Origin: Candidatus Micrarchaeia archaeon | Lineage (GTDB): Archaea > Micrarchaeota > Micrarchaeia > CAILAH01 | DNA: 64,000 nt | Direction: 5' to 3' | Assembly (NCBI GenBank): GCA_038874595.1 | Contig: JAVZCB010000002.1 | Coordinates: 152,715 to 216,714 of the forward strand | Shown: piece by piece, positions 53,723-60,524 of the stretch | Numbering within the stretch: the stretch's first letter is position 1 | Layout: every line of letters begins with the position of its first letter | Notes under the pieces: generated by a model | What the model was told of the DNA's origin: nothing | Seen by the model: the letters and a program-made list of their open reading frames with translations, nothing else | The model's database searches: none | Made by a program: the position numbers and the translations under genes

Positions 53723-56700
53723 TTACCATATCAAGATGATATTCAAGCCGGTATTAAATACGACAGACTCATACCCAGTTTTTGGGTCTTTGTAGAACAG
53801 CAAACTGTTTTTATCTAGATTAATATATGCATTTAAAGTTAATCCAGGTGCGGTCCATCTTGTAAGGTTTACATCTAGGTTAAGGCGATGTTTTTCTTCG
53901 TATGGTGTTAGCCAATAAACATACCCGCCGTGTACAGACCATTCATCAAAATAGCCCCTGCTAAGCGTTTCGCCACCGCCGATTATAAGTGCGAGCTCGT
54001 GCGCCTTCTCACCTTTACCGATTGTGCCGCCCCATCGTGTTTTTGCCTCTTCTTCTGCAATTTGAGTCAGCCACCCTGCACCCGCGTCAAGGAACCCCCC
54101 TAATAAGTAATACCTGCCAATAGCACTTGATTCATATGTTTTTGATTTCGTGCTTCCTTTCTTATCTACCTGCTGGTAGTATGAAATAGGAACAAGCTGC
54201 AGCCGCAGGCCACCATATTCAATAAGAGAGGTTGCACCTATAGCTTGTAGATCACCCATAGAAGTAATCTGTATGGCCGGGCTTATTTTGAGCTCATTGT
54301 CAGTAAGTTTCCAAAGCCATACTTTTGCAGAGCCACCGCCTCCAACAAGTACCCCAGTACCTGGTCCTGTAGTTGCACCAGCAATTTCAAGCTGCAATTT
54401 TCCAAACTTAGCCCCTCCACCAAATAAATTAAGTGAAAGGTCCTTCTGTGCTTTCTCCCATTCTTTACCATTAATATAGTAAAGCCGCACCTGTGTTATC
54501 CTCCCTAATTTGTCCCTCTTTATTTCTGCACCGCCGAATACGCCATTCTTCTCATCTGCACCTTTTTGATAAACCTCAACAACCTTGACATTATTGATAC
54601 CGCCCCATTGCTCAAAGAAATATCTCATCCCTGCTGCCTGTGTCACTCCTGTATATTTTTCATATGCTTGTGCCGCAACTGATGCGGTAATCATAAACGC
54701 CTTATCACTTGCTGCATAATATGTCCTACCAACCCCGCCCGGCCTGATATCCTCCCTCTCACCATACGCTGCAACTATACCCGTACCACCAATTCCAAAA
54801 TACCCCCACGGCCTTACCGCCCTGCTCATTGCACCAAGCCTGAGCGTCTCTGAAGTTGCAGATACGAATGCGTCAGAGTAATACTCATTGCTCTCAGCAA
54901 ACATTAACTCCACAGCAGCGCCCTTTTCAGCCTTTTCACCTATAAGTTTCTCTTTTGTGAGCTGCGGCCTTGCCCCAATGGATTCTTTTCGTGTTATGGG
55001 CTCGCCAGTGGTTGTTTGTGTCGCCGGTGCCGGCTCCTTAAATAAAATCTCACCATTGTAATTATTTGCAAACTCCGGGTTTATGTATAGAATGCCAGCC
55101 CAAATCTTGTTTTTGTTTGGCTGGTATGACATAACACCAGCACCCTTATCAGGGCCGGCTTGCTTATGCTCATATCTTACACCGGCACCTGCTTTTCCGT
55201 ACTCCATCGCAACGCCTACACCCTGGAACATCTTTTCCTTTTCACCGAACAAGTCCTTATCAAAGAACAAAACAGCCGCACCCTCCTGCCGTGTGCTGAA
55301 GTTCTTTGCCTTGTCCCACTGCTGGTGCCATACCCCATACATCTGCTGTGCCTCACGAGGTGTTATCTCAAATGTTCCTGCGTAAACCCACACGCCATCC
55401 TGCTTCCTGAATACCTCTGCGTTCATACCCCTGTGCTCTATATCCCCTCCTTTTTCAATTGACTCGTAATCAAAAACAACAGCAGTCACTGCACCACCGG
55501 GAGCAAGATGCTCAAACGAGAGTTCAGCAAACTTATCAGCACTAACACGTTGTGTCTGAGTTTCCTTTACACCCTTACTCATTATTTGTTGTTGGGTTGT
55601 TTCCTGGCGGGTTACATTATAATATAACCTTCCATCCTTGAACACACCTCCCCCAGGTATGTTTCCCACATTTAAATCTGCAGTAAACCTGTCACTTATA
55701 TTTTCTGTGATTTCAGGCCCTTCCTTCCCTAAGCCTACCTTGTTGCTCACAGTACCCTTCTCATAAGTTATCTCTGTAGCTTCCGCTTTCATGCCAGGAC
55801 CGTATGCACCGCCCCTCCCACTAATTTTGTATTGCTCCAGTGCGCTCTTGTCAGGCCCAGCAAATGTACTGTATGAGTTCCCGCTCCCTTCAAGGCCAAG
55901 CATCCCAACATCCAACTCGCCAAGCTTTGGCACATTAGTTGGTGCAAGCGCGTACAAGTCAAGATCAAAGTTAATTACAGAAATATCCATCTCAGGCTCA
56001 GTTATATTAAGTTGCACTATTGGCCCCATCGTTTTCATATATGCCTGCTCAAAATTTTGCATAAGTGCAAGCGGCCCGGCAAATAAGTTAGGATACTGCC
56101 GTATCACAAGCGAAGCCCTTTCATCAAATGTTGAGCCTTCCGCAGCATTCAGCTTTTCAATTGCAGCAGTCAAATCCTGGTTTTCAAAAAGCGTGAGGTA
56201 CCTGTTAATTGCTATCTGTGCCGCAGGATTAAACAAGTCGAAATATTCCTTACCGCCCGGCTGGCCTATCTTTGCAGTCTTTGGAGTTTCACGCGTCCTC
56301 TCCCACACCCTATAAATGTTCCACATCAGGATGGCACTCAGCTTTGTATCAAGCTCGCTCACGTACCTGTTCAACCCATCCAGGTCCCGCGCATTATTGA
56401 ACAGGTTCATGTAAGACCCAGTGTATATCATTATCTTTGGAATATCCACTGCGTCGAAGTTTCTTAGTATCCGCTCAGCATATTGTGATATGAACAACGG
56501 CGCATAATTATCCGGCATGCTCCTTGCTCCAAGGATGAGTGCAGCCAGCTTTTCATTGCCGGGTTTAACCTTCTCATTAATCTCAAGAATTTCCTTCTGT
56601 GTCCTTAAGTCCAGCGCATTAAAAGTTGACCATACGATAGAGCCATCTAAATCCTTATACTGGCTTTTTAGGTTTTTATCCGTCGAATACCACGAGCTAA

Positions 56701-59621: not shown

Positions 59622-60524
59622 TTAGATGTCGAGCACTTTGAGTACGCCTCCCTTGCCGGTTTTTGATATTTCAGCACCGTACCATTCACATCCCCCAATT
59701 TCAACAACAACCCTGCTTGGCTTCAACGCGAGCATCTGCGGCACAAAATCAACAATATCACTCAGGTGATTTCCCATTGTAAATAGAAAAAATATTCTCT
59801 CCCCATTCCTGTTGCCTTCGGTAACTATAAACCTGAACACCTTATCCTTAAGGCGCACTGGAACCATATTCCTATATCTCTCAGGCACCATTTCAACAAG
59901 AGCCTTTTCTACAAGAGAAGTCTTAATTTCTGACCCTATAACTTCTCTTGCAGTGCTTTTCTTATCAGTGCCGTGAAGTTTTACCTCAGTATTTTCGCTT
60001 ATCACATAATTATTCTGTACATTCTTTGGTGTGGTGTTTTCAACACCTTTTTGTATCATGTACATTATTGGCATTGCCGTCATAACCTTATAAACCGTCA
60101 CGTGCCCGTCTCCAACAGCAACCTTTTCGCAAACAACCTCCCTGTTAGCCTTATCAAGAGGCGTCTGCTCTAACGTAAAAAGGATTTTTTTACCTTCCAC
60201 TTCAACCACAACTTCTGGCAACATCTGCACTGAGTCCCTAACTATAAGATAAGAGGGGGTTTTTGAGTTGCTCTCATAAACTATTACCACCTTACGGCCT
60301 TCTAATTCCTTTTCCAAAGATAGAAACTCCTCCCCCTTATTCCGGCGTATTGAAGGCGCCCCTAATGGCACAAACACACCTATCTTTTTTGAATATTCCC
60401 CCACCCCTTTCATAACACCTTCGACAATTACCTGTGGTGGCTTATTAAACAGAGATTTTCTCTCTTTTTTATTTTGTTTTGCCTCCTCCCCCGCAGGGGT
60501 TGGCCTAAGCGAATGCATACACAT
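59622..60524 (-). CDS. Hypothetical protein
   Basis: About 300-aa ORF co-oriented with the two large genes; no recognised motif. Confidence 0.6.
   Translation of the reverse strand: MCMHSLRPTPAGEEAKQNKKERKSLFNKPPQVIVEGVMKGVGEYSKKIGVFVPLGAPSIRRNKGEEFLSLEKELEGRKVVIVYESNSKTPSYLIVRDSVQMLPEVVVEVEGKKILFTLEQTPLDKANREVVCEKVAVGDGHVTVYKVMTAMPIMYMIQKGVENTTPKNVQNNYVISENTEVKLHGTDKKSTAREVIGSEIKTSLVEKALVEMVPERYRNMVPVRLKDKVFRFIVTEGNRNGERIFFLFTMGNHLSDIVDFVPQMLALKPSRVVVEIGGCEWYGAEISKTGKGGVLKVLDI

What the first reader, a model, noticed from the sequence alone, without database searches (positions are those of the whole stretch)
53723..60524. Candidate undescribed cross-domain contact system: unknown protein, PG-binding protein and beta-barrel giant
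Seen: three co-oriented, lineage-specific genes with 52-63 bp AT-rich gaps; two carry features normally tied to bacterial envelopes. They are followed by ankyrin, HEPN-like and Cys-rich surface genes, forming an accessory block after the housekeeping run. Inference: an apparatus to dock on a walled cell and open a pore, for feeding or effector delivery. This is my best candidate for a new system in the window. The TATA-like gaps mean co-transcription is not established.
Basis: inference. Interest (0 to 1): 0.75.

Follow-up and report, generated by a model that had tools for sequence, protein, structure and literature searches.

The report
Hypervariable giant-barrel gene trio in Micrarchaeia
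A tiny symbiotic archaeon carries three neighbouring, unusually fast-evolving genes: one encodes a 1,401-residue exported protein predicted to fold into the giant barrel type otherwise known from bacterial outer membranes, and the next encodes a protein with a bacterial cell-wall-binding domain, so the set is a good but untested candidate for a cell-contact device.

Summary
On the minus strand lie a 298-aa unknown protein, a 525-aa PG_binding_1 protein and a 1,401-aa giant, separated by 52- and 63-bp AT-rich gaps. The DNA is native: composition is typical and the housekeeping flanks are syntenic in relatives.

- **Giant:** signal peptide, a confident all-alpha domain with no fold match, then about 34 long antiparallel strands. 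Fold searches return only transmembrane beta-barrels (best Z 15). 26 of 34 family members end in F/W/Y, against 9% of the genome's ORFs.
- **Rarity:** 37 cluster representatives among 1.84 billion, no Pfam hit, and about 17 of 201 Micrarchaeia genomes.
- **Envelope context:** the genome has a canonical S-layer gene, no Omp85, and two SLT lytic-transglycosylase genes.
- **Linkage:** the PG-binding gene precedes the giant in at least four genera of this family. The full run ankyrin, unknown, PG-binding, giant recurs on a metagenome contig.
- **Divergence:** the trio is 25-40% identical between close relatives whose flanks are 72-93% identical.

Against a "system": the two smaller proteins have no export signal, each gene has its own TATA-like box, and other families pair the giant with an SGNH hydrolase or nothing. 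Function is inferred only. An earlier scan note reports a different predicted barrel giant in another Micrarchaeia genome.

The parts
53723..57928 (-). Giant protein gene, 1401 aa (P0001). It is the core of the module.
   Evidence: ORF. No Pfam or NCBIfam hit. Family of 37 cluster representatives in 1.84 billion.
57848..57928 (-). Sec-type signal peptide, residues 1-27: basic n-region, hydrophobic core, then small residues.
   Evidence: Read from the sequence. The maximum hydropathy window is at residue 10, and about 22 of 31 full-length relatives have the same N-terminal pattern.
57287..57847 (-). Low-confidence, charged region, residues 28-214.
   Evidence: pLDDT 32-63 in model m1b1a811cf179.
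55934..57286 (-). All-alpha domain, residues about 215-665, with no recognisable fold match.
   Evidence: pLDDT about 90 for residues 215-535. Helices continue to about residue 665 in the second model. Best matches are generic helical repeats, Z at most 8.1, with no Foldseek E below 0.79.
53726..55909 (-). Predicted outer-membrane-type beta-barrel region, residues 674-1401: about 34 long antiparallel strands, ending in an alternating hydrophobic strand with a terminal Trp.
   Evidence: DSSP of model mde6bb99c3e6f; the last 200 residues have pLDDT about 90. Foldseek top hits are PapC/FimD, FadL, porins, LptD and SlpA 8agd. All top 50 rows of both VIA-align searches are transmembrane barrels, Z up to 15.1. 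A terminal aromatic occurs in 26 of 34 relatives.
57929..57991 (-). 63-bp gap with an oligo-T run and a TTTATAT box about 25 nt before the giant's ATG.
   Evidence: Sequence read.
57992..59569 (-). 525-aa Lys/Glu-rich protein (P0002) with one PG_binding_1 domain. No signal peptide or membrane segment.
   Evidence: It is the only PG_binding_1 in the genome.
58682..58831 (-). PG_binding_1 domain, residues 247-296.
   Evidence: PF01471 E 1.7e-8, profile positions 18-57 of 57. The same domain is found in the upstream genes of G017 and G011 (E 2e-10) and of G023.
59570..59621 (-). 52-bp gap with an oligo-T run and an ATATATAAAA box about 20 nt before the ATG.
   Evidence: Sequence read.
59622..60518 (-). 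298-aa protein of unknown fold (P0003 from M14; the longest frame reaches 60557). No export signal.
   Evidence: Homologues: G041 59%, G023 39%, L063 40% identity. Distant copies lie elsewhere in G017 and G011.
60558..61031 (-). 157-aa ankyrin-repeat protein. It is the conserved head of the co-oriented run but is not hypervariable.
   Evidence: Pfam. Start and TATA box read from sequence. 78-88% identical in L063 and G041, and in the same position there.
53158..53625 (+). Convergent 155-aa coiled-coil protein, a conserved flank of the giant in every family-f1 locus.
   Evidence: 55-72% identity between genomes.

Best explanation
This is a fast-evolving cell-envelope module specific to Micrarchaeia.

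Its core is a giant protein exported through Sec (inferred from its signal peptide). The giant consists of a novel helical domain followed by a roughly 730-residue beta-barrel of bacterial outer-membrane type (predicted). The barrel's closing strand ends in an aromatic residue, as in bacterial barrel proteins (shown across the family).

In this family the giant is paired with a protein carrying a peptidoglycan-binding domain. In this genus it is also paired with a 298-aa unknown protein. The three diverge together far faster than their neighbours (shown).

The most likely role, by inference, is a contact device at the symbiont's surface. The barrel would sit in a lipid layer as a pore or anchor. 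Because the cell has an S-layer gene and no barrel-insertion machinery, that layer is plausibly the partner cell's membrane. The helical domain and the two small proteins would supply glycan binding and specificity. That specificity would be under diversifying selection from hosts or viruses.
For: - **Barrel fold:** AlphaFold2 with a 38-sequence alignment gives pLDDT 70 and pTM 0.64, with about 90 over the last 200 residues and about 34 long hairpin strands. Foldseek, VIA-wide and VIA second-look return only transmembrane barrels: E down to 2e-8, Z up to 15.1, and 397 chains at Z 8 or more. The ESM Atlas shape search returns only large barrels from diderm bacteria.
- **Sequence-level support:** 26 of 34 relatives end in F/W/Y, against 9% of the genome's ORFs. 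About 22 of 31 relatives have a signal-peptide-like N-terminus.
- **Not the S-layer protein:** a 912-aa protein with PF05124 (E 3e-14) is encoded on contig 4. No Omp85 was found.
- **Linkage:** the PG-binding gene lies directly upstream of the giant in G000, G023, G017 and L063/L064, and as a divergent form in G047. The run ankyrin, P0003, PG-binding, giant recurs in L063.
- **Joint hypervariability, G000 against L063:** giant 25.5%, P0003 40% and PG-binding 39% identity. Flanks: Alba 93%, the 130-aa core gene 87.5%, ankyrin 78%, GlnA 76% and the 155-aa gene 72%.
- **Giant types do not follow taxonomy:** 28% identity to same-genus G023 but 47% to other-genus G005.
- **Peptidoglycan theme elsewhere in the genome:** two SLT-domain proteins.
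Against: - No coordinates could be inspected, so barrel closure and a hydrophobic belt are not verified.
- Several N-terminal strands of the region are polar on both faces.
- TM-scores to solved barrels are low, 0.15-0.25 by query.
- P0002 and P0003 lack any export signal.
- Each gene has its own promoter-like box.
- In families f10, f15 and f20 and on metagenome contigs the giant has no PG-binding or P0003 neighbour.
- In G055 a PG-binding protein sits at the same locus with no giant.
- Cultivated Micrarchaeota have one membrane plus an S-layer, and wall-less hosts (10.1101/2021.04.28.441871).
- There is no expression or localisation data.
Confidence: 0.4

Rival explanations
1. The giant is a part of the archaeon's own envelope. 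It could be a pore or anchor associated with the S-layer, or part of a real second lipid layer. The PG-binding and 298-aa proteins would then be cytoplasmic neighbours with unrelated roles.
For: The giant sits at an old, conserved chromosomal position next to sugar-nucleotide genes (NTP-transferase, PGM, epimerase) in several families, as envelope genes often do. Early cryo-EM readings proposed two membranes for Micrarchaeota, as cited in 10.1101/2021.04.28.441871. Deinococcus SlpA (8agd), an S-layer-linked 30-strand barrel, had the highest TM by query, 0.25. The small proteins lack export signals.
Against: No Omp85 was found. The giant was found in only about 17 of 201 Micrarchaeia genomes, and no giant lay beside the 130-aa core gene in the 7 negative genomes where that gene was located, of 8 inspected. 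An essential envelope part would be more general. The joint hypervariability of all three genes is hard to explain if two of them are unrelated.
Confidence: 0.25
2. The giant is simply a hypervariable secreted adhesin. Its beta-rich C-terminal half is not membrane-embedded, and the barrel is an over-reading of a shallow-alignment model.
For: Mean pLDDT is only 70, with several stretches below 50. Many strands are polar on both faces. RMSDs to porins are 7-15 Å. The genome holds many other large secreted proteins.
Against: Every top fold match is a transmembrane barrel, with no beta-solenoid, Ig-type or Rhs-type hit. The conserved terminal aromatic strand is a hallmark of barrels, not of adhesin repeats. 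No adhesin Pfam domain was detected.
Confidence: 0.18
3. The trio is a conflict module, for example a virus-receptor or decoy set or a defence set. It would diverge under virus pressure and have no role in host contact.
For: Extreme divergence and type switching that does not follow taxonomy. A variable set of accessory genes lies between GlnA and the PG-binding gene in different genomes. Two copies of the giant lie in tandem on L033.
Against: No virus, integrase or known defence domain was seen in the neighbourhood. PADLOC was not searched.
Confidence: 0.1
4. The block is misassembled bacterial or viral DNA.
For: Two of its features (PG-binding domain, barrel) are typical of bacteria.
Against: Native composition. 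The same flanks, including the archaeal Alba gene, occur in at least five independent assemblies. Relatives of the giant lie beside archaeal Trm56. A same-genus homologue of P0003 is labelled Candidatus Micrarchaeota archaeon by NCBI.
Confidence: 0.01

Closest known systems
OmpM/SlpA-type outer-membrane tethers of diderm Terrabacteria (Deinococcus SlpA, PDB 8agd)
   Same: A long helical part followed by a very large C-terminal beta-barrel, working with a cell-wall-binding module. 8agd gave the highest TM by query, 0.25 over 1066 alignment columns.
   Different: There the wall-binding SLH domain is fused at the N-terminus; here a PG_binding_1 domain sits on a separate protein with no signal peptide. 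There is no sequence similarity. The helical part is a globular domain, not a coiled-coil stalk. The organism is an archaeon with an S-layer gene and no Omp85.
Usher pores of chaperone-usher pili (PapC, FimD)
   Same: Best Foldseek E-values, 2e-8 to 1e-6. They are large single-chain barrels that pass proteins.
   Different: No Usher Pfam match, no chaperone or pilin genes next door, and TM only 0.15-0.17.
General porins and substrate channels (CymA, OccK, PorB, maltoporin)
   Same: Highest structural Z, 13-15. The barrel also ends in an aromatic residue.
   Different: Those have 14-18 strands and 300-420 residues; this has about 34 strands and 730 residues plus a 650-residue N-terminal part. 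RMSD is 7-15 Å.
Large extracellular SLT-domain proteins of Pacearchaeota and Woesearchaeota (fam00969; PMC8204110)
   Same: DPANN proteins with bacterial cell-wall-directed domains, proposed to attach to bacterial cells. This genome also has two SLT proteins.
   Different: A different lineage. Those are single giant enzymes; here the domain is non-catalytic and next to a barrel giant. That paper does not describe a barrel.
Hypervariable envelope gene pair of another Micrarchaeia genome (earlier scan note e1-1495025)
   Same: A giant with a predicted outer-membrane-style barrel at a fixed locus, diverging almost beyond recognition.
   Different: It appears to be a different family (conserved MFLFQ start, paired with a CARDB adhesin). 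No MFLFQ giant is present in this genome. I did not test that note.

Membership tests
PG_binding_1 (PF01471) | Match to the Pfam profile above the gathering score | tested here: met
   P0002 residues 247-296: E 1.7e-8, 34.9 bits against a cut-off of 23. Whole-genome scan: 38.3 bits.
PG_binding_1 (PF01471) | Actual binding of peptidoglycan, and an extracytoplasmic location | not testable with these tools
   No signal peptide or membrane segment in P0002. Binding needs a pull-down with sacculi.
Bacterial outer-membrane beta-barrel proteins | Closed antiparallel barrel with an even number of strands | tested here: inconclusive
   About 34 long hairpin strands, and only barrel matches.
Bacterial outer-membrane beta-barrel proteins | C-terminal strand with alternating hydrophobic residues that ends in an aromatic residue (beta-signal) | tested here: met
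   26 of 34 family members end in F/W/Y, against 9% background.
Bacterial outer-membrane beta-barrel proteins | N-terminal Sec signal peptide | tested here: met
   Crude hydropathy test only. It was positive for P0001 and for about 22 of 31 relatives.
Bacterial outer-membrane beta-barrel proteins | Omp85/BamA insertase in the same genome | tested here: not met
   PF01103 was not found in the 93.5%-complete genome, while the controls were positive.
Bacterial outer-membrane beta-barrel proteins | Sequence match to any curated barrel family | tested here: not met
   No Pfam or NCBIfam hit for P0001 or three relatives.
Archaeal S-layer protein | S_layer_N or S_layer_C domain | tested here: not met
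   None in the giant. The genome's S_layer_C protein is a different gene on contig 4.
OmpM/SlpA tether | N-terminal SLH domain fused to the barrel protein | tested here: not met
   No SLH or any other Pfam domain in P0001.
Operon (one transcript) | Co-transcription of the three genes | not testable with these tools
   The gaps are short, but each holds an oligo-T run and a TATA-like box. This needs RNA data.
Conserved gene module | The same genes in the same order in independent genomes | tested here: met
   PG-binding followed by giant in G023, G017, L063 and L064. The full four-gene order recurs in L063. P0003 adjacency occurs only in this genus-level group.

The most novel reading that the evidence does not exclude
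Some Micrarchaeia make a true outer-membrane-type barrel protein without having an outer membrane or a BAM machine, and insert it into another cell's membrane. That cell would possibly be a Gram-negative bacterium, with its wall gripped by the PG-binding partner and cut by the genome's SLT enzymes. This would be the first archaeal member of the barrel class and a molecular handle on archaeon-bacterium episymbiosis. A variant reading is that these lineages do have a second lipid layer.
Probability: 0.15. Interest if true: 0.92.

Novelty: new variant of a known kind. Interest (0 to 1): 0.7.

Why it matters
Transmembrane beta-barrels of the porin or usher type are regarded as a hallmark of bacterial outer membranes and of the organelles derived from them. 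I found no paper describing such a protein in Micrarchaeota.

A rare, ancient, very fast-evolving family of giant predicted barrels in a DPANN lineage raises two concrete questions. Where does the barrel insert? And how does it fold without Omp85?

It also gives a specific gene set with which to study how these reduced symbionts touch other cells. That includes the open question of whether some DPANN have bacterial partners (PMC8204110).

Tried and rejected
- **Giant as the S-layer protein:** rejected, because another gene carries S_layer_C.
- **Chimeric or foreign DNA:** rejected.
- **The 130-aa protein beside the giant in other families as a dedicated partner:** rejected. It is a core gene in 199 of 201 genomes (this count includes one unpublished genome, G085, and no other claim rests on it). 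No giant lay beside it in the 7 giant-negative genomes where it was located, of 8 inspected.
- **GDSL hydrolase of family f15 as a homologue of P0002:** no similarity.
- **The 487-aa gene inserted in G023 as a relative of the PLC-like protein:** no similarity.
- **Word-index homologue searches:** they returned almost only self.
- **The search for related loci with alignments A4 and A2:** failed for lack of a conserved stretch.
- **ESM Atlas feature searches for the N-terminal half and for P0003:** no usable hit.
- **PDB sequence searches with the 130-aa and P0003 profiles:** nothing.
- **N-terminal domain fold search:** only generic helical matches.
- **Sigma-70 promoter scan:** not informative for an archaeon.
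Full report
**Setting.** The window is the last 64 kb of a 216.7-kb contig of a 918-kb, 7-contig genome that is 93.5% complete. Alba, a Cdc48-type ATPase and archaeal neighbours mark it as archaeal. NCBI labels a same-genus homologue of one of the genes as Candidatus Micrarchaeota archaeon. Earlier scan notes on this genome call it Micrarchaeia.

**Observation.** Three minus-strand ORFs occupy 53723-57928 (1401 aa, P0001), 57992-59569 (525 aa, P0002) and 59622-60557 (311 aa, P0003).
- The gaps are 63 and 52 bp. 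Each has an oligo-T run after the stop and a TATA-like box 20-30 nt before the next ATG.
- P0003 most likely starts at M14 (60518). A TATA-like box lies upstream, and the G041 homologue and the database gene call begin there.
- A 157-aa ankyrin gene (60558-61031) abuts it.
- Upstream and divergent lie a 182-aa gene with no family hit and a Cys-rich, Kazal-bearing 468-aa gene.
- Downstream and convergent lie a 155-aa gene, Alba, an NTP-transferase and two PGM genes.
- Composition is native: tetranucleotide r = 0.89 (29th percentile), GC 0.426 against 0.440.

**The giant.** It has no Pfam or NCBIfam match.
- An exhaustive HMMER profile search of 1.84 billion cluster representatives found 37 proteins of 135-2420 aa, most of them 1000-2400 aa. 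None of the three tested had a Pfam domain.
- AlphaFold2 on residues 455-1401 with a 38-sequence alignment gave pLDDT 70.3 and pTM 0.64. The model has helices to about residue 665 and then about 34 long antiparallel strands to the C-terminus. The last 200 residues have pLDDT about 90.
- Foldseek against the PDB returned ushers, FadL, porins, LptD, MtrB and Deinococcus SlpA, with E from 2e-8 to 1e-5 and low TM.
- Two VIA-align searches returned only transmembrane barrels in their top 50: Z up to 15.1, and 397 chains at Z 8 or more.
- The ESM Atlas shape search returned only large barrels from diderm bacteria.
- Independently of any model, 26 of 34 relatives end in F, W or Y after an alternating strand, against 9% of this genome's ORFs.
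- About 22 of 31 full-length relatives have a signal-peptide-like N-terminus.
- Residues 215-535 fold into a confident all-alpha domain with no meaningful structural match.
- I could not inspect coordinates, so barrel closure and the apolar belt remain unverified. Several early strands are polar on both faces.

**Envelope context.** The genome has a 912-aa signal-peptide protein with S_layer_C (E 3e-14) on contig 4, so the giant is not the main S-layer protein. Omp85 was not found. P0002 carries the only PG_binding_1 in the genome. Two SLT lytic-transglycosylase-domain proteins are encoded elsewhere on the same contig, one with and one without a signal peptide. Cultivated Micrarchaeum harzensis has one membrane plus an S-layer and a wall-less host (10.1101/2021.04.28.441871). 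SLT giants in other DPANN have been read as hints of bacterial partners (PMC8204110).

**Distribution and synteny.** In 201 Micrarchaeia genomes the profile found the giant in 15. Single-sequence search adds G017 and G047. The carriers belong to families f1, f10, f15, f19 and f20.
- Eight giant-negative genomes were inspected. In the 7 where the 130-aa core gene was located, no giant lay within 10 kb of it.
- All five genera of family f1 have the giant, always beside the 155-aa gene and sugar-nucleotide genes where the contig allows.
- The gene directly upstream is a PG_binding_1 protein in G000, G023, G017 and the metagenome contigs L063/L064. In G047 it is a divergent PG-binding-like protein. 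In G011 the pair is probably split by a contig break. In G029 and G035 the upstream gene has no detectable PG-binding domain.
- P0003 homologues lie at the locus only in G041, G023 (with two genes inserted) and L063. Distant copies (21-28% identity) in G017 and G011 lie elsewhere, beside a Zn-phospholipase-C/S1-P1-like protein and NAD kinase.
- L063 carries the full order ankyrin, P0003-like, PG-binding, giant.
- Outside f1 the neighbour is a 737-aa SGNH/GDSL hydrolase (G184, L034) or nothing recognisable.
- In G055 a PG-binding protein sits at the equivalent locus with no giant.

**Evolutionary rate.** The comparison is G000 against L063.

| Gene | Identity (%) |
|---|---|
| Alba (flank) | 93 |
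| 130-aa core gene (flank) | 87.5 |
| Ankyrin (flank) | 78 |
| GlnA (flank) | 76 |
| 155-aa gene (flank) | 72 |
| P0003 | 40 |
| PG-binding protein (160 alignable residues only) | 39 |
| Giant | 25.5 |

G000 and same-genus G023 share 74.5% in the NTP-transferase but only 28% in the giant. Other-genus G005 shares 65% in the NTP-transferase and 47% in the giant.

**Reading.**
- *Shown:* a rare, native, rapidly diverging three-gene island; a bona fide PG_binding_1 domain; a conserved terminal aromatic strand.
- *Predicted:* a giant outer-membrane-type barrel and a novel helical domain.
- *Inferred:* a surface contact, pore or anchor role, and co-operation among the three proteins.

The main obstacles are the missing export signals on the two small proteins, the separate promoter-like boxes, and the loose partnership outside this family. 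I put 0.40 on the contact-module reading, 0.25 on an own-envelope role for the giant alone, 0.18 on a non-membrane adhesin, 0.10 on a virus-conflict module and 0.01 on an artefact.

**Novelty.** I found no description in the searched literature. An earlier scan note (e1-1495025) reports a different predicted barrel giant in another Micrarchaeia genome, which I did not test. I rate the finding as a new variant of a known kind: an outer-membrane-type barrel protein in an archaeal context with no outer membrane and no BAM machinery.

Noticed in passing
G000:C5:94598-94990 (L058:6578-6991, minus strand): A roughly 130-aa protein (N-terminus MVEFRGVKL...) with no Pfam, NCBIfam or PDB match is present in 199 of 201 Micrarchaeia genomes. 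It lies directly beside the giant in families f10 and f15 and on contigs L033, L034 and L066. Carriers in f15 have 2-3 copies. It is a core gene of unknown function.
   Followed up: partly
window 63622-64000 and G000:C5 end (L058): Gene order in G041 and L063 (130-aa gene, GlnA, then the accessory genes) implies that the end of contig C5 joins the end of the window's contig C2.
   Followed up: partly
G000:C2:41698-42615 and C2:132801-133952 (L060:970-1887, L061:1153-2304): Two SLT lytic-transglycosylase-domain proteins occur in an archaeon: 305 aa without a signal peptide and 383 aa with one.
   Followed up: partly
L022:179-2241 (G017) and L023:1210-3342 (G011): Distant P0003-like genes are each paired with a 404-427-aa protein that weakly matches Zn-dependent phospholipase C / S1-P1 nuclease, next to NAD kinase in G017. 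G000 has the PLC-like gene (C1:188910-190181) beside NAD kinase but with no P0003-like gene next to it.
   Followed up: partly
L026:11115-13325 (G184) and L034:5735-7948: A 737-aa SGNH/GDSL hydrolase without a signal peptide lies directly upstream of the giant in distant lineages, in the place the PG-binding gene holds here.
   Followed up: no
L033:363-13106; L026:37-5772; L052:6723-17452: Giants occur in pairs in some genomes: two 1952-aa copies flanking the 130-aa gene on L033, and a second 1912-aa barrel-ending protein in G184. In G157 a 1698-aa ORF with no profile hit follows the 1726-aa giant.
   Followed up: no
L056:13728-15323 (G035): An ORF starting MFLFQ lies 3 kb downstream of G035's giant.
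   Followed up: no
L027:6119-10703 (G047): The giant appears split into 769-aa and 617-aa ORFs. This may be a frameshift, a pseudogene or an assembly error.
   Followed up: no
window 61090-61638 (+) and 61734-63140 (+): A 182-aa gene with no family hit (74% identical in G041) and a Cys-rich, Kazal-domain 468-aa secreted protein (68% identical in G041) form the variable accessory stretch between GlnA and the ankyrin gene. L063 has a 62-aa zinc-finger gene there instead.
   Followed up: partly
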